From assembly GCA_951406725.2 (NCBI GenBank), contig OX597817.1, forward strand, positions 114,762,001 to 114,826,000: 64,000 bases of DNA, read 5' to 3'. The stretch is from Octopus vulgaris. Taxonomy: Eukaryota. The translations under genes and the position numbers were made by a program. Shown one piece after another: positions 3,494-60,774 of the stretch (positions are counted from its first letter, which is position 1; each line of letters opens with the position of its first letter). The notes below the pieces were generated by a model, which worked only from the letters and a program-made list of their open reading frames with translations, searched no databases and was not told the DNA's origin.

Positions 3494-4314
3494 GGAAAAA
3501 CTAAAATAAAACATACCCATAAGCCCAGGTATACACACATATAGCTAAATATATATAGTAGAAATTATGTGTACAATTAGGTGTTTGACTGCTACTATTA
3601 TGTTTAGAGCCCTATGTAAGTTTTCATTATCTAGTCTGCTTTCTGTATAGTCATTAACTACTATACTGAGTAATGGTATCAGTTATGGGCTACAGAACAA
3701 ATGTAGAAAAACTAAGGATAAGCACAGTTTAAACTACCTTTAGCACAGTGTAGATGCATTATGACTCTGTATGAGTTACCTCTCTTCTCAGTGTGATACA
3801 ATGTACCTGAAACTACAGGGGAGAAAACCTGTATGGTGCTATGATGTACTTAAGTGTGCTAAAGGTTAAAGTCCCTACATCTGTTTCACCATTATGGTTC
3901 TTTTGGGGTCCTTATGATAGATATTCCAAATATGTATAAACGTTTGACCACAATGGATCCTCAGGGACTGAGGATTTATTGTGGTTGAGCATCTGTATGT
4001 AGTTGGAGCATCTATTGTTAAATATGTATGTAGAATATTTATATGCACATGCTGTACTATACACAATGTATATAATGTAGAAACACTTGTTGCGATATAT
4101 GTAGATATACACAGGTATTCACATACACACATTCTCTTTTACAAGCAATTATGACAATATAAAATATATTAAAACACACTTAAATAATCATATAAAGTCA
4201 CACATTGAAACACAAACAATGAATCGTGCAAGCAACAATTTCCATACAATTGCTACCTCCTATTTACTCATACACATGCACAGAGAGAGAGAGAGAGAGA
4301 GGGACAGAAAGAGG

Positions 4315-10715: not shown

Positions 10716-10955
10716 CACATGCACACACACACATTATATATGCATATATACACATATAAGCATGTATGCATGCAGGTGTCTGTATACATATGCACACACG
10801 TTCAGCTGAACTGTATTTTGCTTATGACATATGTATGTATGTGTGTGTATATATATATATATGTGTGTGTGTATATATATGTATATATATATATATGTGT
10901 GTGTGTGTATATGTATATAACATATACACTTGTTTAGAGTGTGTATGTGTATATA

Positions 10956-12225
10956 TGAGGGGCGTTCAATAAGTAATGCCCCTGACCCACTTCCCATAGC
11001 AGTAGAGCAACGACACTTGGCACAGTTATTAGTCTTTTCCTACATAGGAACTACCCAGAGTTATGCATTTCTCCCATCGCTTGATACAGCTCTGGAGACC
11101 GTTTTTGTAGAAGACCCCAGCTTGGTCCTCCAACCACGACGTGACTTCAGAAATCAAGGCTGCATCATCTGGGAAACGCTTTCCTTTCAAAATCAACTTC
11201 ATGGCTGGAAAGAGGTGAAAATCAGAGGGTGCAAGGGGAGGAGTTCATAGCTGCATGCCTGTGCTTCTGATCTGGCGACACGCGAGCTGTGGACTGGAGC
11301 GTTGTCCTGCAGGAGGAGGATGCCTTTGCTGATCTTGCCCTGCCTCTTGATTTTGATAGCTTCTCTTAATTTCCTCAAAAGTGAAGCATAATAGGCTCCT
11401 GTAATTGTGGTACCCTTTGCCAGGAAATCTGTCATCACTACTCCGCCCTGGTCCCAGAAGACTGTGAGCATAACCTTGTCAGCGGAGGGCTGCACCCTTG
11501 CCTTCTTTGGAGGAGGTGAGTCACGGTGCTTTCACTGCATTGACTGGGCTTTGGTCTATGGATCATAGTGATGGACCCAGGTTTTATCCTGTGTGATCAG
11601 TCTTTTGAAAAATTTTGACTCATCTTCTTGGCACATCTCCAAATTCATCCTCGAGCACTCAACGCGTTCTTGCTTCTGGAAAGGTGTGAGCAACCTGGAA
11701 ATCCATCTGGCAGACACCTTTTGCATATGCAAATGGTCATGAATGATAGTTTCCACAGACCCGGTACTAATCCTGACCTTATGGGCTATTTGGCGAATAG
11801 TTATGTGTTGACCTTCCAAAATGGCAGCCTCAACTTGACGGACAGATGTCTCATCAACGGCAGAAGGGGGCGACCAGATCTGGGAGCTGTTTCCACAGAG
11901 TTCTGACTATGTTTGAATTCACAATGCCAGCGTTTTACAAGGTCATATGATGGGGCATCATCACCATAAGTTACTTTCATTTCATGAAAAGTCTCCCGTG
12001 GTGTGCGTCCTTTCAAATACAAAAACCAGATCACTGCTCGACACTCAACAGGCTCCATTTCACACTTGACTCAGTTCAAACACCTGTAAATCAGAAACCA
12101 CAATTAGTTCAGAGCTGTAATTCGCCACTTCATCTATAGAGGTATAATTAAGTGCACATGCAAAATTTCAGCTAGATCAAACAACTGCAAGTGGGTCAGG
12201 GGCATTACTTATTGAACGCCCCTCG
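10956..12225 (-). mobile_element. Full-length decayed mariner DNA transposon (~1270 bp; probably irritans-like)
   Basis: The 37-bp TIRs (t/c)gaggggcgttcaataagtaatgcccctgacccactt lie at 10956-10992 and 12189-12225 with one mismatch. TA flanks both ends, the length is typical of mariner, and a transposase pseudogene lies inside. Confidence 0.96.
11029..12058 (-). pseudogene. Mariner DD34D-type transposase pseudogene
   Basis: Joined ORF pieces read MEPVECRAVIWFLYLKG..RSGRP (HTH), KVSARWISRLL (WVPRxL motif), LITQDKTWVHHYDP, KVMLTVFWD, LLLQDNAPVH, APSDFHLF..RWEKCI..YV. There are frameshifts and stops, and a deletion removes most of the YSPDL motif. Confidence 0.93.
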
Positions 12226-12296
12226 TACCATATGAATGAATGTATGGTTATGTATGTGTATTTGTGTATATCTGTCTGTCTGTCTGTCTCTCTCTC

Positions 12297-12366
<70 letters not shown>

Positions 12367-14144
12367 TTAGCTGAACTGTATTATGCTTATCATATTACAG
12401 TGTTGGCAAAGTCATTGACATTCTACAAGAGGTGATGTAGCACCTGGTAAAATTCAGTAACATACTACCAATTGATGTTCAAATTTTGCACCAATTAACT
12501 CCCTTCTTGCTGTTGCTGCTGCCTCTTTTCTAACCTGAGGTTTTAGGAATACAGTCACAAGGACTTTTTGCCATTTATACTGTGTGCTTTTGGTTTGATA
12601 GAGTAACAATATTTGTTCCAGATTTTTGTCAAGCTACCTTGAACTGTGATTAAAATCCTTTGTCTCACTCCAGAATTTTCTCTTTAATGAGTCTATATCT
12701 TCCTGGGAAGGAGCCTTCATGACATTTATTAATAGTCCCCTTACGTCTATGGTTTCAATTAAATTTCCCTGTTTTCCTTAATTTAGTTTAAGCTACTCTC
12801 TTTTGATGCTGAAGTCTTTTGCTAATGGCTTTTGGTTCCTGTATGAGGATGGTTAATCTGTATCCCATTGTTTTCGTTTTACAATCTCGAGACATTTTAC
12901 TATTTTATTGGTGGCAAGTGTATTTATTTGTCTACTGTATTTTCTGGCATACAAATTGACATAGTATATAATGTAAACATGTACTGTTAGCATTCAAACA
13001 TTGTCACTATCTCACTATCTTTCCAAATCCTGCTGCATTTCACATGGAATTTTTGGACCTCCAAATCATCTTGGTGTATAAGTCAACCTACCATTTTTGG
13101 TTATAAATTTTGGTCTGCAAAAATTCAACTTGTCTGCTGGAAATTATGATTTTTGCTTTTGATGAGCAGTGTGCCTTGATTGATAGTTTTCTGTTTCAAA
13201 CTCCATGATAGCACTTTTCTTTTTTATTGTTTTGCTTTTCTTTAATTCTTCTGTGTCTCCAAGTTGTTTTATTTGCTGTCACTTAGAGGCTTATAAACAA
13301 GTGTTCAGTTAGCCAAAATGTGGGGTCTTTGCTGATGACTTCTAGAACCATCACAGTTGCATGACCATTGGAAACTCATTCCGGTCTCTGCTTAACTATC
13401 TGTCATTCCTTCATTTTATTTTTTGGTCCTGATTGAAGTTTTACTCGTTGGAGAAAAACCAAAGCATCCTAGCCTCTTGGTATTTTAACTTGTTTAGCAG
13501 AGCACTTTCCATTGATTGAACGATTTTCTCTTGTCACATCTGATATAAACTGACCCTCCAAATCACATGCACAACTTTTCTGATGGTTCATTCTGAAACA
13601 TAAACACAGCAACACTAGTCACACTAATCAAGTGATGGTGAATGGCCAAACACAGACATAAAAATACACACATACACACACACACACACACACACATGTC
13701 ATTGTCATCATCATCATCAAACGTTCATTTCCCATGCTGGCATATGTTGGACAGTTTTATTGAAAACAGTTAAGCTGGGGAGATGCACCAGATTCCAATC
13801 TGATGTGGCATGGTTTCTATGGTTGGATGCCTTTCCTAATACCAACCACTCCAAGAGTATAGTGAGTACTTTTTACGTGCCACAATCATTGGTGCCAGTT
13901 ACGCAACACTGGTATTAGCCATGTCTATGGTCTTACTTGGCTTGACATGTCTTCTCAAGCATGGTGTATTGCCAAAGGTCTTGGTCACTTGTCACTGCCT
14001 CTGTGAGGTCCAAAGTTTGAACAGTGCTTTTTATGTACCACCAGCATGGGTGCCAGTTATATAACATCGGCATTGGCCATGATTACATTTTCACTTGGCT
14101 TGGTGGGTCTTCTCAAGCACAGAATATCACCCAACATTCAAAAG

Positions 14145-14350
14145 ATGCTGGGCTTCTTTCAGTTTCCATCTCTCAAATCGACTCACAGGGTTTTGGTTAG
14201 CCTGAAGCTATAATAGAAGACACTTGCTCATGGTGCCATATAGTTGAACTGAACCCGGAGCCAAAAGCCACTAGCAAAAGACGTCAGCATCAAAAGAGAG
14301 TAGCTTAAACCGTGGTTGGGAAGCAAGCTTCTTAGAATGCAGCGACACCT
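14145..14350 (-). mobile_element. SINE family A head half, carrying a foreign 54-bp insert
   Basis: Reverse-complement match to the family A head, with an insert at 14257-14310. Confidence 0.75.
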
Positions 14351-14684
14351 AGAGATAGATAGATAGATAGATAGATATAGATATACATATTTGAATGTAT
14401 ATGCATGTGCATGTAAGTACAGTTAAATCACAGTGACAAAAATATTAAGTAGCACATTGAAATAAACATATATTCTGTACCTACTCTGAGCACAAATGCA
14501 TTTCTAGCAATTAGAAATTCATAAAATATAAATATATATTTTATGTATATAGTCACTCCATTTATTTGAGGCCAGTAGACAAATAGGCAAAAGTCCTGAC
14601 ATAAAATATTTGATTTTCAAGTATGCATTTCATCTTTTATCATATACGTATGCATATCATACACACACGCACATAGACACACAG

Positions 14685-14742
<58 letters not shown>

Positions 14743-14842
14743 CTATATTGTACATATATACATATGTGTGTGTATGTATATATATAATGTGTGTACATAT
14801 ATATATATATACACACACACACATACACTTGTATACACATGA

Positions 14843-14884
<42 letters not shown>

Positions 14885-14939
14885 GGGCGGCAAAAGTCAT
14901 ACACAAAATAAGTTCAATAAACTCCAGAATTGTCGAAGA

Positions 14940-15279
14940 ACTTATTCTTTGTAAGCCTGGTACTTATTCTATTGCTCTCTTTTGCCGAACTGCTAAGTTA
15001 CGGGAATGTAAACACACCAACATTGGTTGTCAAGCAATGTTGGGAGGACAAGCGCACAAACATATACACACACATACATATATACAGACATACACAGACA
15101 CACACAGACACACATATATATGAGGGGCTTCTTTTAGTTTCTGTCTACCAAATCCACTCACAAGGCTTTGGTTGGCCCAAGGCTATAGTAGAAGACACTT
15201 GCCCAAGGTGCCACACAGTGGGACTGGACCCGGAACCATGTGGTTGGTAAGCAAGATACTACCACACAGCCACTCCTGC

Positions 15280-15280
<1 letters not shown>
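14940..15280 (-). mobile_element. SINE family A
   Basis: Reverse-complement match including the head cacacagccactcctgcg. Confidence 0.85.
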
Positions 15281-15320
<40 letters not shown>

Positions 15321-15402
15321 TCCAATCCATGCCAGTATGAAACGCGAACGTTAAATGATGATGATGCTGTATGTATAAAGTATAGGAATATATGTATATG
15401 TG

Positions 15403-15443
<41 letters not shown>

Positions 15444-15631
15444 ATATAGGCATGTGTGTATGTATACGTATAACACACAAATTATATTCCTACTGAATAT
15501 TCATTTTCATATATTTCTAGTTGAAGATGGTTTGCACAGTGTCTCTCTCTGCATGCACATATTTGTGCATATATGCTTGTGTGCATCTATGAATGCATGT
15601 GTATGTGTGTGCATATCCATTTCTGCATGTG

Positions 15632-15671
<40 letters not shown>

Positions 15672-16070
15672 GATATATATATGTATATATATATGGGCTA
15701 GAAGGGAGAGATAGAGTTTCTGTTACTCACACAGCACACACACATATACACTACTCCTGACAACAATATGTGCCAAGAAAAATGATATATAATGCAACTA
15801 CCCACATACTTGCACACACACTCAGGCAAACCCGCTTTTGCAGGCATGGAAAAAAAAAAAAAACTGGCCAAGTGAAAATACAAAAAGAAAAGAAAAGAAA
15901 CCCAGCTAGGCCTACAGACACAAAAATCTTTTTCATTCTAGCTTTTACAAGCTAAAACTCATCATTTATTTGCACATATTTGCCAATAAAATGTAATAAA
16001 TCTAGATTTTTCTCTGTCATGGAAAATAGGCAGAAAGCTATCATTACCGGGTCAGTTTTTTGGATGAGTA

Positions 16071-24281: not shown

Positions 24282-24316
24282 GTTTCCGACGAAGAGCTTC
24301 ACTCGAAACGTTAAAC
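24282..24316 (+). ncRNA. Minimal hammerhead-like motif (CCGA core variant)
   Basis: gttt-CCGACGAA-gag cttca ctc-GAAA-cg-TT-aaac. Confidence 0.55.
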
Positions 24317-24418: not shown

Positions 24419-24419
<1 letters not shown>

Positions 24420-24575
24420 TTATTTAAAAGCAGCAGAAATATAACAAAAGCTGTTACTCAGAGTTTCACATTTCCTGTTTGTCAGACAGTTTTTTTTTAA
24501 CAAAACTGTCTGACGAATGGGAACGTGAAACTCTGAGTAACAGCTTTTGTTATATTTCTGCTGCTTTTAAATAAA
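24419..24575. repeat. Inverted repeat hairpin (~75-bp arms) between (TA)n tracts
   Basis: tttatttaaaagcagcagaaatataacaaaagctgttactcagagtttcac... is mirrored at 24502-24575. Confidence 0.95.
24506..24543 (+). ncRNA. Minimal type I hammerhead ribozyme motif
   Basis: ctgt-CTGACGA-atg ggaa cgt-GAAA-ctc t gag-TA-acag. A decayed mirror copy lies on the minus strand in the left arm of the same hairpin. Confidence 0.75.
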
Positions 24576-41990: not shown

Positions 41991-42131
41991 ATATATATAT
42001 ATATACAGTGTACTGTTCCATGATGGTAAAATTAACAAAAAAGAAATACTCCATCTCGTAAGAGATAAATATTATTTCATAAACACAATATATGTTTTTA
42101 TGTACTAGTATTAGTTTCATGTGCTGAGAGC

Positions 42132-42317
42132 ATGCCAGACAATATTTTTTAATGTGTCTGATGTCCTGGCACAATCTTCAGACACTGCCTACATGACATA
42201 ACAAACTAAAAGTGGGACAATAAGATGAGAGAAAAAAAAACAGTTTGTTATGCCATGTGGGCAGTACCTGAAGGTCATGCTAGGACACCAGAAATATTAA
42301 AAAATACTGTCTGGCAT
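42132..42317. repeat. Diverged inverted repeat hairpin (~75-bp arms)
   Basis: atgccagacaatatttttta..acataacaaact is mirrored by agtttgttatgc..aaaaatactgtctggcat. Confidence 0.9.
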
Positions 42318-42559
42318 AATACCACATAAAGACATATATTGTATTTATCAAATAATATATATATATATATATATATACTCACACACAAATAAATGTATAA
42401 GGATAATGTATGAGCATAGAGAATAACAAGCTTTAATAGTAGATCACTACATTTGTTTTTGTATCTAACTTTGGAATATACTCCTGAAGGATATCATATG
42501 GTAGCCAATTAACGACATTAGAGCTTATATAGACATTACAAGGTTTTTGCCAAATTATA

Positions 42560-45805: not shown

Positions 45806-46330
45806 TACACTATAAATACCTTTGGCTACTAATCTCTCTGTGGACAGAAGATGGGTATTCTTTCTTTGATGAAGGTCGAAGAAGACAAGAAACTAGTATG
45901 ACCAATTGCTTTTTCATTTTTGTCCTAGGAAAGGTAAAAACAATCCTTTAGTATAACAACTACGTCTCCTTTGCACAAGGCCATTATTTTATGCTCATTA
46001 AAGCACTATATTTTACATTACAATTTCTCACTTTCACATCCACACATACCCACACCTGCACACTCATATACACCCACGTTCCTATGTAGATGTACATGTG
46101 TGTATACATATATGACCTGCAAGGGTCATAGAATCATGAAGGTGCACATCCCATTGAAATTTGAATTCATTTGAATGTTGTGGTTCATGAATTCACCTGA
46201 TGTAAATAATTTTCTAATGATGTAATGTTTCCATTAAACAATTAAAAATTCATTAGAAACAGCTGTAGTGAATTTCCACATTATCCATCTGTTGCTATTT
46301 ACTTATGTGTGCATATGTGTGTGTGTGAGA

Positions 46331-47569: not shown

Positions 47570-47759
47570 TTTAACAATTAAGGATAATCTCTTAATAAGG
47601 GATCTTAACAAGAAATTATCGGGTAGTTAGCGTGAAAACCTCATAAAAGAAAAGAATTCGAAAATAATTTTTTTCTTTTGAACAAATTAATTATATCTAT
47701 ATTGTATAGAGGGCATTATTACACAAGGTTGGTAGTTTATTTATGATGTGTTCAGAATC

Positions 47760-47817
47760 AGTTCTGCTGAGGATCATAAGACGTAAGTTGAATGTGAAAT
47801 CACGGTGATACAGAACT
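47760..47817 (+). ncRNA. Type I hammerhead ribozyme motif
   Basis: agttctg-CTGAGGA-t cat(..)atg t-GAAA-tcac g gtga-TA-cagaact: perfect 7-bp helix I, intact core and near-palindromic helix III. Confidence 0.75.
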
Positions 47818-47959
47818 AAATTCATTTTTTAAATGTCTTGCTTTGAAAAACTGCATTTAGGTATGATTAGTATAATTTTGATAGTAATGACTTTGTCCCT
47901 CTTAGTGTGAGGCATTTATGTGTAATAATGCCCTCTATACAATATATATATATATATAT

Positions 47960-48289: not shown

Positions 48290-49100
48290 CATCATCACCA
48301 TCATCATCATCGTTTAACGTCCGCTTTCCATGCTAGCATGGGTTGGACGGTTCAACTGGGGTCTGGCGAGCCCGAAGGCTGCACCAGGCCAGTCAGATCT
48401 GGCAGTGTTTCTACAGCTGGATGCCCTTCCTAATGCCAACCACTCCGAGAGTGTAGTGGGTGATTTTATGTGCCACCGACACAGGTGCCAGACGAGGCTG
48501 GCGAACGGCCACACTCGGATGGTGTTTTTTATGTGCCACCGACACAGGTGCCAGACGAGGCTGGCAGACGGCCACGCACGGATGGTGTTTTTTATGTGCC
48601 ACCGACACAGGTGCCAGATGAGGCTGGCAGACGGCCACGCTTGGATGGTGTTTTTTATGTGCCACCGACATAGGTGCCAGACGAGGCTGGCAGACGGCCA
48701 TGCTCGGATGGTGTTTTTTATGTGCCACCGACACAGGTGCCAGACGAGGCTGGCGAACGGCCACAATCAGGTGGTGTTTGTTACGTGCCCACAGCACGGA
48801 GGCCAGTCGATGCGGTACTGGCTATGGCCACGTTCGGATGGTTTTCTTATGTGCCACCGCCACTGGTACCACAAAGATACAAATTCCATTGATGTTCATC
48901 TATTTTGATTTGGTTTGATTTGATTTGATTTTCACTTGCCTCAACAGGTCTTCACAAGTGTCACAAGAAGGAAGGTATGCACAGGTGGAGTGACTACGTC
49001 CCATGTAGGGGCCACGGGTTATGGCTTCACTAGTCTTGCCAGGTCTTCTCACGCACAGCATACTTCCATAGGTCTCGGTCTCTAGTCATTTCCATGGTGA

Positions 49101-52211: not shown

Positions 52212-53349
52212 GCATACACATACACACATGCATGTACATATATATACATACACATGTCTGTGTGTCCATATGTGTATGCACTACGCACATATGCCCATAT
52301 AATGTATGTGTGTGTATATATATATATATATGTCTATGTGTGTTTGTATAGGTAGGTAAGGAGTGAGGTATGTATGTATGTATAAGCACATATATTAGGA
52401 GCTTTTTTCAGTTGACATCTTCCAATTCCACTCACAAAGGCTTTGGTCAGCCCAGGGCTGTAGTAAAACGAAAAAAAAACACTTGCCCAATTGATATAAA
52501 ACCTGGGTGACATAGACAAAACATTATTTCATACTCATATGACCATGCAATTTATATCATCCTCATTGTTGTTGATTCCTTCGCTTCGTCCTTCTTATCA
52601 TCTGTATAGTAGCATCCATTTTACAAACGCTAACGATTGGCATAATACATTAACATTGTTTCAGTTTGTTGTTCTGAGATCTTATCTGGTTTCTTTCTTG
52701 TTTTTACTTTACAAAGGACATATTCTATTACCGGGATATAGTACCTTTTCATCCACTGTTCATTGTTTATTTCCTTCACATGTTCATGTTAACTCAGTAA
52801 TTTCTACTTTAAATGTCAGCTGATAATTTTCATACCTGTCCTCTTTGTTGTCTCTTTTGTGCACCATTTTCCATGCAATATTTGACATCTGACATACACA
52901 TGAATTATTTCTCTACAGGAACTCTGAATTTTTTTCACATATCTCACTTCCCTGCCACATTACTCTTTTCTCTATACCTTGTACTTTTTGCCCTTTGCAT
53001 GGTGCAATAATCCCTTTCTAACTTACAAATCTAACATCTCTTTGAATCCCTTCAACTTTTTTCTTAGACTAAAATATTAGTCCATTTCCAGTACTAACTG
53101 TTGTTGTTGTTGTTGTTTAAGCTGAGGTTAGTCCTAATGGAGTATCTCAATGATTGAAAGTCAACCTAGTTTATAAACATTGCATCTTCTTTTCATGCAC
53201 AGTGTAACTTCAACTACATTATTTAATGTGACCTTTTTTAAAGTGACAAGATGTGATTTGCAAGAGATTTTGTTGCTATGTTTAGGAAGTTAAGTGGCCA
53301 TGTAGAATCTTACTGAGTGACTTGTTCACTACTAAAAATATTTATTATC

Positions 53350-53850
53350 ATTAATGTGTTGTCACCCACAGTTCCAGAAATCTTAACATCTTACACAGAG
53401 CCAAATGATACATTTGCACAATTGTACATCAGTCATCAAATCCATCGAAAACTTCTAAAGAGCCATGAATTATTAACAATCACTGACAACTGTCATATCC
53501 TGAAAGATTTCACAAAGGTGAAATTCACATCAGAAGAAGAAATAATACAGGTAACAAAATGTGAAAACTTCTGTGGGATATGTGATTTGATTGTACAGGA
53601 AAAAAATCAGAAACTTCAAGGATGGGAAAGAATTTAAGGTTAATGCAAATATTACTTGCAAAATGAAAAGATCAGGATACATAAACAACAAATCAAGGAT
53701 CTACCTGTTAGGAATGCTCTATATTGTGAACACCTAGACATTTCTGTCAATGAGGAATTCAATTTTTTTTTTTTCAAAATGAAAATGAACAAAAACAAAA
53801 GGCAAAAGAAGAACAGTTTATAAAGATTTTCAGTTTGAAAATAAGCCAGA
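53350..53850 (+). pseudogene. Penelope-like element relic (Cys linker plus GIY-YIG endonuclease remnant)
   Basis: LKDFTKVKF..VTKCENFCGICDLI..FKVNANITCK..RIHKQQIKD..YCEHLDI..KEEQFIKIF follows the PLE pattern KC..CxxC..F.C..R..H..H..E..FI. The GIY/YIG core appears deleted. Confidence 0.6.
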
Positions 53851-57863: not shown

Positions 57864-58196
57864 TGTGGCCGTTCGCCAGCCTCATCTGGCACCTGTGTCG
57901 GTGGCACATAAAAACACCATCCGAGCGTGGCCGTCTGCCAGCCTTGTCTGGCACCTGTGTCGGTGGCACATAAAAAATACCATCCGAGTGTGGCCGTTCG
58001 CCAGCCTCGTCTGGCACCTGTGTCGGTGGCACATAAAATCACCCACTACACTCTCGGAGTGGTTGGCGTTAGGAAGGGCATCCAGCTGTAGAAACACTGC
58101 CAGATCTGACTGGCCTGGTGCAGCCTTCGGGCTCCCCAGACCCCAGTTGAACCGTCCAACCCATGCTAGCATGGAAAACGGACGCTAAATGAATGA

Positions 58197-58247: not shown

Positions 58248-59189
58248 GCTTCCACTCTGTTTTTACCTGCTAAATTTGCTTACAAGGTATTGGTTGGCTT
58301 GAGGCTATTGTAGAAAACACAGCTGTGCCTGCATTTCTTGCAATAAAATATTTAAACTATGTACAATATTTACATTTTAAACTCATTAAATAAATAAAAT
58401 TTTTATTGGGATTAAAATGTAAGTCAGACATTATGTTATCAGTGATGAGAATATCACTGATGATGTGCCAAAGTCTAATATAATTCCATTAGATAAGTCC
58501 TCATGCTCTTTAATAATCATGTTCTTTAATAAATAATTTAATTTATGAGTCACTAGTGAATGCAAATATCCTAAAATAGGATGCAATAATAAACCATTAT
58601 GTAAAGTTAACTTTTATTTGATAAAAATAATCTAGTGTTTCTGTTTTGTGCTTTTTGCGAAACAAGGGGGATGTTTTGTTTTTTTTGTAAAATGCTATCT
58701 TATGGAAAGAGGTACTCAGCTATGAAAGGTTGAGAATAAACCATTGGTTTATAGCTAAGTGTCTCTTATACAGATAACTAGTGAGGGATGTGTAGTTTTC
58801 TCTAATTATACTGCCACTTCAGACTATCAAGAGAGATAAATATGAGAAGAATGCCCAGAAAATGATTTAGGCACACTCCTGTTATATGAAAATTTATAAC
58901 AGTGGAGTGTATACATACATGTATCTCAGATATATATATATATGTAATATGTATGGCTGTGTGTATGTGTGTTTGTCTCCCACCACTGCTTCACAAATAG
59001 TGTGGGTTTGTCTATGCTCCTGCAACTTAGTGTTTTGGCAAAAGTGCCTGATAGAATAAGTACCAGGCTTTTAAAAATGAGCACTGGGGTTGATTTGCTT
59101 GCCTAAACCCTAGAAAGCAATTGCCCAGTGTGGCTGCATTCCAATGACTGAAACAAGTAAAAAATAAAAGGCAATATATATGTATATAT

Positions 59190-60535
59190 ATATACATACA
59201 TACATACATGCACACATACCTACATACATATCGTGGTCTTTCCTCATGTTTCTTGAAATTTATATCCACATCTTTATGAGTATATTTACCTTCTTGGGAT
59301 GTCAATAATTAATTTAAGAACTTTGTATTGTTGGAAAACATATATGGTCTGCTTGGAATCTTACTTCATTTTCCTGGAACTCACATCTATAACTTTATAA
59401 GTATATTTACACTCTCTAAGATGTTTGGAAAACCTATATGAAATTTAGCTGAAGATTACTTGACATTATATTTGCTGTAATATTTGCAGCTTTAATAAAA
59501 TGTTTATATTATGAAACAATTGTACTAAACTACCGATCCATTCTTGTTGCTTATTTTTTGGTTACATACATACATACATATAAATAAAGCATAATAAGGA
59601 AAGGGAAAAAATAGATGTGTAGATGTTACTTTATTCCAAGTTAGTCCATATATCCAATAAAAACTCTACAAATTGTTTCCAAGCAAAAGAAAACGAAATA
59701 AATCCTTTTGAAATCAAAAATTAGGCTTTTCCTTAGGAATTCATTATTGGAATGAATGGGCTGTTGTAAAGGTCTTTATATTTTTGTTGGTATAACACAT
59801 TCATTCCAATAATGAATTCCTTAGGAAAAGCCTAATTTGTGATTTCAAAAGGTTTTACTTCATTTTGTTTTGAATTAAGTAGGCTTTGAAACAACTTGTA
59901 GAGATTTTATTTGATATATGTACCAGAATAAAGTAGCATCTACACTTCTGTTTTTTTTTTTTTCTTTATTATAATTTATTCATTTATTGTACCAATATTG
60001 AATATATAGATTTTTATGTATTCTTTGCTTTGAATTGAACTGGCAGACTTGAATGTTTAACATTCCTTTGAATGATTTAGGTCTTTTATATATATATGTG
60101 TGAGTGTGTGTGTTTGTATAATTCTTGATATATGTATAATTCTTGATATATGTCTTTGATGTATGTAACCAAAAAATAAGCAACAAGAATGGATCGGTAG
60201 TTTACTACAATTGTTTCATACTATAAACATTTTATTAAAGCTGCAAATATTACAGCAAATATAATGTCAAGTAATCTTCAGCTAAATTTCATATAGGTTT
60301 TCCAAACATCTTAGAGAGTGTAAATATACTTATAAAGTTATAGATGTGAGTTCCAGGAAAATGAAGTAAGATTCCAAGCAGACCATATATGTTTTCCAAC
60401 AATACAAAGTTCTTAAATTAATTATTGACATCCCAGAGAAGGTAAATATACTCATAAAGATGTGGATATAAATTTCAAGAAACATGAGGAAAGATGCCGA
60501 TCAGACCATGATATGTAGGTATGTGTGCATGTATG

Positions 60536-60550
<15 letters not shown>
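59190..60550. repeat. Nested double inverted repeat (fold-back)
   Basis: The outer arms ~59190-59570 and ~60160-60550 are nearly identical. The inner, more diverged arms are ~59585-59757 and ~59798-59980. Confidence 0.95.
59444..59529 (+). ncRNA. Type I hammerhead ribozyme motif with long helix II
   Basis: tttag-CTGAAGA-(57 nt incl. gctgtaa/ttgcagc stem)-GAAA-caattg-TA-ctaaa. A mirror copy is at 60201-60286 on the minus strand. Confidence 0.7.
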
Positions 60551-60602
<52 letters not shown>

Positions 60603-60774
60603 GGACACACACATGAATACAAACATATGCATGTAAGCACAACCATCCCCAACCCCGTTCTTTTACTTCTGAACCTATTAAGTGATTTTTTTTGTAAAAG
60701 GTTACCACAAACGAAGCATATTTGATCTAGTCAAACATATCCAGCCATCATTTGTAACTTGGTAACATGTACCA

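What the first reader, a model, noticed from the sequence alone, without database searches (positions are those of the whole stretch)
59190..60550. 1.3-kb nested fold-back carrying four hammerhead motifs
Seen: the outer ~380-bp arms are almost identical (a few substitutions and one 11-bp indel) and even include the flanking microsatellite. Each outer arm holds a hammerhead (59444-59529 +, 60201-60286 -) with a different lesion: the left keeps helix I ctaaa, the right keeps helix II tact/agta. The older inner hairpin holds a second-family motif, CTtAGGA-aaagccta..taggcttt-GAAA-caacttg-TA (59820-59900), and its mirror. Inference: a young inverted duplication or PLE insertion is wrapped around an older one. 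Either strand would give a long dsRNA containing sense and antisense ribozymes, a possible ADAR or Dicer substrate and cruciform.
Basis: partly seen in the sequence, partly recalled or inferred. Interest (0 to 1): 0.8.

Follow-up and report, generated by a model that had tools for sequence, protein, structure and literature searches.

The report
Nested Penelope stubs, local inverted duplication
A 1.4-kb mirror-image stretch of likely octopus DNA holds decayed tail ends of two abundant repeat families that carry self-cutting-RNA (hammerhead) motifs; it is likely an old Penelope-type jumping-gene scar later wrapped by a local copying error, and all four motifs are damaged and predicted to be locked inside one long hairpin, so it is mostly ordinary.

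Summary
The nested fold-back is real: outer arms differ by 3 substitutions in 341 bases plus two indels, inner arms by 22 in 182. The four motifs match published Hydra-clade Penelope hammerheads (U·U base of helix II, AC…GT helix III). Public contigs show both layers are repeat families whose majority letter restores the core or helix at three of the four lesion sites; none was shown for the fourth. The inner layer is the standard head-to-head Penelope scar with a one-sided tail. The outer arms point tail-to-tail and share about 55 bases of flanking microsatellite, and the spacer is single-copy in two runs. They are best explained by a younger in-place template-switch duplication with both junctions in microsatellite, not by an ordinary insertion. 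No contig confirmed the outer junctions, and transcription and editing are untested. Each motif is damaged and would be trapped in a duplex (-142 versus -10 to -16 kcal/mol). Helix II is unusually long (57-61 nt; at most 26 in 26 published Hydra rows). This scan already noted long-armed Hydra hammerheads and a similar nested scar elsewhere in this genome. Interest is low.

The parts
59174..59231 (.). Interrupted (TA)n/(CATA)n microsatellite, mirrored at 60511-60564; likely flank co-duplicated with the outer arm
   Evidence: family contigs stop matching at 60508 and one X7 contig continues with other letters
59232..59571 (+). Outer left arm: 3' stub of repeat family A, 3' end pointing inward; contains a ~122-nt internal direct repeat (76-78% alike); lacks 11 bp and 1 bp that the family has
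   Evidence: summed depth rises from ~400 to ~13000 towards the hammerhead end against 13 for the flank in X1
59444..59529 (+). Family A Hydra-type type-I hammerhead motif: helix I 59444-48/59525-29, core 59449-56, 57-nt helix II domain, helix III ACAATTGT, predicted cut after 59524; helix II lesion at 59509
   Evidence: family majority G at 59509; pattern compared with File S2 of PMC8557442
59580..59770 (-). Inner left arm: inverted copy of family B stub; motif C3 at 59736, G5 lost, 11 bp of helix II deleted
   Evidence: exact contigs 59594-59747 in X1 and 59594-59741 in X7
59790..59983 (+). Inner right arm: family B stub, head-to-head with the left arm
   Evidence: contigs 59826-60012 with no substitution in X1 (2 gaps) and X2
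59814..59906 (+). Family B Hydra-type hammerhead motif: core 59820-26 with G5 lost at 59822, 61-nt helix II domain, helix III ACAA-C-TTGT, predicted cut after 59900
   Evidence: family majority G at 59822
59984..60083 (+). One-sided extension (tail) of family B, about 100 nt, ending at a (TA)n run
   Evidence: multi-copy depth and shared variant letters at 60014-60045; exact contigs 59984-60079 in X1 and X2
60084..60158 (.). (TA)/(TG) microsatellite and 18-bp tandem repeat (60115-60153); inner junction of the duplication at 60158/60159
   Evidence: no contig covers 60124-60144
60159..60510 (-). Outer right arm: family A stub, 3' end pointing inward; hammerhead motif 60201-60286 with helix I lesion at 60205; the first ~9 nt are (TACA)n-type microsatellite shared with the left arm
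   Evidence: family majority G at 60205; family contigs run into (TA)n at 60159-60170
60511..60597 (.). Mirror of the left microsatellite running into a long (TA)n run; outer junction of the duplication

Best explanation
The locus is two layers of repeat: an older head-to-head fold-back of family B, likely the insertion scar of a Hydra-type Penelope-like element, inside a much younger tail-to-tail inverted copy of a family A stub plus its microsatellite flank, likely made in place by a DNA template switch. Shown: two nested inverted repeats of different age; two multi-copy families; intact majority letters at three lesion sites; family A depth highest at the hammerhead end; family A ending in TA-type microsatellite; a single-copy spacer in X1 and X2. 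Inferred step 1: a Penelope-type RT/GIY-YIG enzyme inserted B into a TA microsatellite as an inverted 5'-truncated copy plus a direct copy and tail. Inferred step 2: a family A stub inserted next to it. Inferred step 3: a nascent strand ending in (TGTA)n switched to the complementary (TACA)n beside the 3' end of A, possibly helped by the B hairpin bringing the two sites together, copied about 400 nt backwards through A and the flank, and returned through self-complementary (TA)n. Which arm is the original is not settled. Inferred step 4: each arm then took its own mutations. Predicted function today: none as a ribozyme. If transcribed, the RNA would form one long duplex that hides all four motifs and would be a generic editing substrate.
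For: Arm divergence 3 of 341 versus 22 of 182. Reciprocal lesions, with each arm keeping the family state where the other changed: 59509 and 60205; 11-bp and 1-bp indels covered by exact family contigs 60451-60508, 60395-60454 and 60426-60477. Depth gradient along family A with its peak at the motif end. The shared unit begins and ends inside microsatellite. Spacer contigs sit at flank depth in X1 (11-18 versus 13) and X2 (27-42 versus 36), with no extra depth at 59875-59964 at 97% likeness, so no second copy of the spacer shows in those runs. In File S2 of PMC8557442, 14 of 26 Hydra rows have the 'gat...tgaa' U·U base of helix II and 26 of 26 have an AC...GT helix III (my count); Hydra elements prefer (TA)n. 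Head-to-head is the frequent Penelope layout (PMC3846280 passage). Template switches that create an inverted repeat with a spacer are described as type 3-2-1-4 (PMC5453318 passages). Duplex energy is -141.7 for A with its mirror against -10.5 to -16.2 for the motif alone; the whole fold-back is -834 kcal/mol.
Against: No contig bridged either outer-arm junction or showed a pre-duplication allele, so step 3 rests on anatomy alone. In X1 no contig carries the window's letter at 60205. The inner junction falls within about 9 nt of the natural 3' end of family A, which a retro-mechanism predicts directly. In X4 the spacer contigs are at depth 52-54 against 18-27 for the flank, which could mean a second copy there. 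About 400 nt is far longer than the short mutation clusters studied in PMC5453318. No RT or endonuclease ORF is linked to either family here (0 Pfam hits in 6 frames tested), and 0 of 4 motif words were found in the Hydra sequences of the PMC8557442 supplement, so Hydra membership rests on motif pattern and target only. The base of helix II in B is A·G by majority (59887), not the Hydra U·U or G-C.
Confidence: 0.58

Rival explanations
1. The outer layer was made by Penelope machinery: a sense read-through RNA (microsatellite, A, B hairpin) self-primed at its 3' end, or one RNA primed two nicks about 590 bp apart, giving a tail-to-tail repeat that carries flank DNA.
For: [quoted passage not shown] The inner junction sits at the 3' end of family A. 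The whole unit lies between TA runs, the Hydra target. Spacer depth in X4 is about twice flank depth.
Against: The spacer is single-copy in X1 and X2, so no donor locus shows. No family contig continues into the shared microsatellite, though repeats are filtered. A copy landing within 600 bp of its donor needs an action in cis that is not described in the papers I read.
Confidence: 0.2
2. Two independent older A insertions in opposite orientation were later made nearly identical, flanks included, by arm-to-arm conversion.
For: Family A is abundant and the window holds 23 local inverted-repeat rows. Both inner ends are at the natural 3' end of A.
Against: Both arms end at the same 5' point and share the interrupted microsatellite, and the adjacent inner arms were not homogenised (12% divergent).
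Confidence: 0.08
3. The second outer arm is an assembly artefact (chimeric read or inverted join of two haplotypes).
For: No locus-specific contig was listed for either outer arm or for 60124-60144, and X1 has no contig with the window's letter at 60205.
Against: The arms differ by reciprocal changes, including an 11-bp deletion between AGA repeats and a CpG-type change, and each arm keeps the family state where the other changed. Contigs drop rare variants inside high-copy families.
Confidence: 0.08
4. The whole 1.4 kb is one foldback or MITE-type DNA transposon with 400-bp terminal inverted repeats.
For: Long, nearly identical terminal repeats with internal ~122-nt subrepeats, TA runs on both sides.
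Against: Depth varies about 30-fold along the arm with the peak at the inner end, and the spacer pieces specific to this locus are single-copy. The arms carry a retroelement-type hammerhead pattern.
Confidence: 0.04

Closest known systems
Hydra-clade Penelope-like elements and their hammerheads (Craig et al. 2021, PMC8557442; read abstract, section 11, passages, and supplement part 2 with Files S1/S2)
   Same: Type-I motif with ctgaNgat...tgaa core (family A), AC...GT helix III with a 0-3 nt loop (both families), 3' location, TA-microsatellite target, inverted 5'-truncated partner and one-sided tail (family B); a Hydra family is known from Octopus bimaculoides.
   Different: Helix II domain of 57-61 nt against at most 26 nt in the 26 Hydra rows; tail about 100 nt against 30-40 bp; no ORF linked; no word match to the published sequences (0 of 4); outer arms tail-to-tail with co-duplicated flank.
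Endonuclease-bearing Penelope insertion units with inverted pLTR and tail (Arkhipova et al. 2013, PMC3846280; passages read)
   Same: The inner layer has the head-to-head inverted layout with a one-sided tail.
   Different: The outer layer has the tail-to-tail layout, which the paper mentions only as the outcome expected of sense self-priming; no target duplication can be seen inside microsatellite.
Minimal hammerheads of metazoan PLEs (Cervera and De la Pena 2014, PMC4209133; parts 1-2 of 4 read)
   Same: Short helix I, short palindromic helix III, scattered single motifs and opposite-strand pairs 100-700 bp apart; low in-vitro activity reported.
   Different: No bulged nucleotide plus G10.1-C11.1 pair; much longer helix II.
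Short-range template switching, four-point type 3-2-1-4 (Loytynoja and Goldman 2017, PMC5453318; passages read)
   Same: An upstream segment is copied in reverse complement after a spacer, giving an inverted repeat in one event.
   Different: About 400 nt copied with a 587-nt spacer, far above the short clusters studied; junctions here lie in microsatellites, which that study masked; the authors infer inter-strand rather than intra-strand switches.
Metazoan non-LTR retrozymes (Cervera and De la Pena 2020, PMC7229834; passages read)
   Same: AT-rich repeats of a few hundred bases with a type-I hammerhead; an axolotl motif with a U·U base of helix II still self-cleaves (22% in one hour).
   Different: Retrozymes are head-to-tail tandem repeats; here the copies are inverted, with no tandem hammerhead units.

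Membership tests
Type-I hammerhead ribozyme (family level) | CUGANGA and GAAA core with UH cleavage site | tested here: met
   Exact in both A arms. In B lost in both window copies, but the majority letter at 59822 is G in 90-97% of depth in 4 of 4 runs.
Type-I hammerhead ribozyme (family level) | Three helices around the core | tested here: met
   Majority letters restore helix I (60205) and helix II (59509). The helix II domain of the right A arm folds better than 500 of 500 shuffles; for B right, 11 of 500 shuffles folded as well. Depth tables give no linkage, so covariation was not tested.
Type-I hammerhead ribozyme (these four copies) | Intact core and helices in the same molecule | tested here: not met
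   Each of 4 copies has a lesion: helix II, helix I, G5, G5 plus an 11-bp deletion.
Type-I hammerhead ribozyme | Self-cleavage at the predicted site | not testable with these tools
   Needs an in-vitro assay.
Rfam hammerhead families | Covariance-model score above threshold | tested here: not met
   No hit at gathering score or at E up to 10.
Hydra-clade PLE | Hydra-type hammerhead pattern (File S2) | tested here: met
   A: ctgaagat...tgaa-acaattgt-a. B: helix III acaa-c-ttgt but an A·G base of helix II. Helix II is much longer than in all 26 rows.
Hydra-clade PLE | Insertion into (TA)n | tested here: met
   Family A contigs run into (TA)n at 60159-60170; B is bounded by TA-type runs.
Hydra-clade PLE | Single ORF with RT and C-terminal GIY-YIG lacking CCHH | tested here: inconclusive
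   No ORF remnant in the stubs; no genome was held to walk upstream.
EN+ PLE insertion unit | Head-to-head inverted 5'-truncated copy with one-sided tail | tested here: met
   Met by the inner layer.
EN+ PLE insertion unit (outer layer) | 3' ends point outward, no flank duplicated in inverted orientation | tested here: not met
   3' ends point inward and about 55 nt of microsatellite is mirrored.
Non-LTR retrozyme | Head-to-tail tandem units, each with a hammerhead | tested here: not met
   No tandem array of that kind.
Template-switch inverted duplication | Ancestral allele with one arm, explained by a switch and return | tested here: inconclusive
   No joint listed at 97%, 93 joints were not shown and rows at repeats were dropped.
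Template-switch inverted duplication | Complementary microhomology at both junctions | tested here: met
   (TACA)n/(TGTA)n at the inner junction and (TA)n at the outer one; weak, because microsatellites are dense here (132 rows).
Foldback/MITE DNA transposon | The arm-spacer-arm unit is itself multi-copy | tested here: not met
   Spacer at flank depth in X1 and X2; about twice flank depth in X4.

The most novel reading that the evidence does not exclude
Penelope reverse transcriptase self-primes on sense read-through RNA and copies neighbouring DNA back into the same locus, making tail-to-tail inverted duplications around older hairpins. Long-armed Hydra hammerhead elements would then be a recurring factory of kilobase double-stranded RNA for octopus RNA editing, with selection knocking out each ribozyme copy separately.
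Probability: 0.12. Interest if true: 0.65.

Novelty: new member of a known kind. Interest (0 to 1): 0.27.

Why it matters
As it stands this is one decayed repeat locus. Its value is modest. It shows two more abundant octopus hammerhead families with a helix II two to four times longer than in the published Hydra rows, which Rfam misses. It also gives a datable case of a ~400-nt inverted duplication anchored in microsatellites. If tail-to-tail flank duplications proved common at Penelope 3' ends, they would test the sense self-priming route that PMC3846280 names but does not show, and would point to a source of long duplex RNA in an animal group where many edited sites overlap repeats (PMC9068888 passages, squid data).

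Tried and rejected
No whole genome is held for this window, so copy number and full-length family members could not be searched. Rfam gave no hammerhead hit; the miRNA-family hits are microsatellite or hairpin artefacts below gathering score. No RNA holder was listed among 24 runs. X7, whose RNA status is only a guess, holds exact pieces of the inner hairpin and tail with no letter differences, but contigs drop rare variants and DNA can be in the run, so this says nothing on transcription or editing. Stretches without cover (59245-59289, 60100-60144, 60520-60729) prove nothing because repeats and human-like contigs are filtered. A 21-base word of family A found 5 metagenome-collection loci; 5 of 5 match only 21-23 bases and are chance hits. 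Sequence look-ups in this scan's notes found no look-alike for A or B and nothing near this place. Four motif words had 0 hits in the PMC8557442 supplement; line breaks in its FASTA could hide a match. No Pfam family in 6 frames of the arms. A host gene was not identified: 10 ORFs were scanned, only a mariner transposase passed, and the Atlas gave only low scores for 53317-53634. Only 4 of 20 holder runs were laid and 4 (5 different runs), and both calls showed only the best-supported rows. Paper searches found no description of long-helix-II Hydra hammerheads or of tail-to-tail Penelope stubs with co-duplicated flank; the library lacks most subscription papers, and I read only 1 of 59 parts of the PMC8557442 supplement plus search passages. 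Retrozyme and foldback-transposon readings were rejected for the reasons given under membership.

Full report
Setting. The window is AT-rich animal DNA with 132 tandem-repeat rows and many SINE copies. I take it for octopus from recalled SINE sequence and from this scan's notes; no call names the species. No genome is held.

Observation. The fold-back is real in the sequence. The outer arms are 59174-59571 and 60159-60564. In the element part they differ by 3 substitutions in 341 aligned bases, one 11-bp indel and one 1-bp indel; the mirror goes on through about 55 nt of interrupted microsatellite. The inner arms (about 59580-59770 and 59790-59983) differ at 22 of 182 aligned bases with several indels. 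The bare core is not above chance (11 sites against 9.7 expected), but the fuller motif is (1 against 0.01). A Hydra-type descriptor finds 5 sites in the window against 0.003 expected; it was written after I had seen the sites. Rfam finds none.

Family evidence. I laid contigs of 5 of the 20 holder runs in two calls. At 85% likeness the summed depth on the outer arms in X1 rises from about 400 near 59260 to 13000-16000 at the hammerhead end, against 13 on the unique flank; X2, X4 and X6 show the same shape. Summed depth is not a copy number, but the gradient fits a repeat anchored at its 3' end and shortened at its 5' end. It places both 3' ends facing inward. The inner layer is a second, rarer family (bins of 71-983 in X1) that continues about 100 nt beyond the mirror on the right side only. 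Majority letters restore the lesions: G at 59509 (98.6-99.8%), G at 60205 (99.6-100%) and G at 59822 (90-97%). No row was shown for the fourth copy's G5 site (59734); 89 rows were not shown. In a share of the depth (under 10% to about half, by run) the free N7 position differs (60277) and the base of helix II is A-U instead of U·U (60274); this is where a hammerhead tolerates change. At 97% likeness contigs with no substitution cover the inner hairpin and tail in X1 and X7, and with 0-1 in X2 and X4. Family A contigs run into (TA)n at 60159-60170 and stop matching at 60508. No joint was listed, and no locus-specific contig was listed for the outer arms or their junctions.

What the motifs are. 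File S2 of PMC8557442 lists 26 Hydra hammerhead rows. By my count 14 have the U·U base of helix II (ctgaNgat...tgaa) and all 26 have a helix III that begins AC and ends GT. Family A fits both marks. Family B fits helix III but has A·G at the helix II base by majority. Hydra elements insert in (TA)n, as both families do here. The difference is helix II: 57 and 61 nt against at most 26 nt. It is predicted to fold as an interrupted stem (A right: 0 of 500 shuffles as stable; A left 1; B right 11; B left, which lacks 11 bp, 176). A U·U base does not rule out cleavage (axolotl motif, PMC7229834 passage). No ORF links either family to a Hydra RT, so they work like Hydra 3' ends but membership is not proven.

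How the locus likely arose. The inner layer has the usual Penelope layout: head-to-head arms and a one-sided tail (PMC8557442 and PMC3846280 passages). The outer layer does not. Its 3' ends face each other, and the copied unit starts in (TA)n, runs through flank and the A stub, and ends about 9 nt into (TACA)n. The spacer is at flank depth in X1 and X2, so no donor cassette shows elsewhere (X4 is about twice flank depth, which is unexplained). The simplest account is one in-place template switch with microsatellite microhomology at both ends, of the kind called 3-2-1-4 in PMC5453318, though much longer than the cases studied there. The main rival is self-priming on a sense read-through RNA, which PMC3846280 says would give tail-to-tail repeats; the junction at the 3' end of A favours it, and the need to land beside the donor counts against it. 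An assembly artefact is unlikely because the lesions are reciprocal, but it is not excluded.

Function. Each of the four copies is damaged. A motif paired with its mirror gains -141.7 (A) or -95.2 (B) kcal/mol against -9 to -16 for the motif alone, and the whole region folds at -834 kcal/mol. So no cleavage is predicted. A transcript would be a generic substrate for editing, as repeats are in squid (PMC9068888 passages), but transcription was not shown and no host gene was identified. One oddity: 2 of the 3 arm-to-arm substitutions fall in the 39 motif-critical bases (P about 0.036, chosen after the fact), and both B arms lack G5 by different changes. This could reflect selection against an active ribozyme, but it is too weak to claim.

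Verdict. Observation confirmed; interpretation partly supported. New members of a known kind, in a window with 23 local inverted-repeat rows, of which at least two others carry such motifs. Interest 0.27.

Noticed in passing
window 3876-3964 (-): Hydra-type hammerhead motif with a U·U base, 10-bp proximal helix II and a 70-nt helix II domain; a short upstream inverted copy is predicted to pair over the core.
   Followed up: partly
window 24419-24575: 91% head-to-head fold-back with a short-helix-II hammerhead motif in each arm (C3 at 24510 +, intact core; 24485 -, changed core) between TA runs.
   Followed up: partly
window about 24285-24315 (+): A further decayed minimal-hammerhead-like string (core with one change, short helix II, GAAACGTT) seen by eye in the sequence printed.
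   Followed up: no
window 42065-42362: Old (67%) head-to-head fold-back with a long-helix-II, U·U-based motif at 42181 (-) and a decayed mirror.
   Followed up: partly
window 47692-47952 and 46197-46267: Motif at 47767 (+) with a 7-bp helix I inside 34-bp inverted repeats (97%); motif at 46197 (+) with an 8-bp helix I and one core change.
   Followed up: partly
window 59509, 60205, 59822, 59734: Each of the four motifs is hit by a different lesion; 2 of 3 outer substitutions fall in motif-critical bases (P about 0.036, after the fact). Possible selection against active ribozymes, unexplained.
   Followed up: partly
window 59709-59938 in run X4: Spacer contigs at depth 52-54 against 18-27 for the flank, unlike X1 and X2; could be a second copy or uneven cover.
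   Followed up: no
window 10954-12227: Mariner-type remnant: 39-bp inverted ends (97%) around a Transposase_1 match (E 8.7e-21).
   Followed up: partly
window 12786-14310: 54-bp inverted repeats (94%) 1.4 kb apart, possibly the ends of another DNA transposon.
   Followed up: no
window 48464-48871 and 57864-58038: The same GC-rich 63-bp tandem unit at two places in opposite orientation (6.4 and 2.8 copies).
   Followed up: no
window 53317-53637 (+): 106-aa open frame that reads like real protein; no Pfam family above cut-off and only low Atlas scores.
   Followed up: partly
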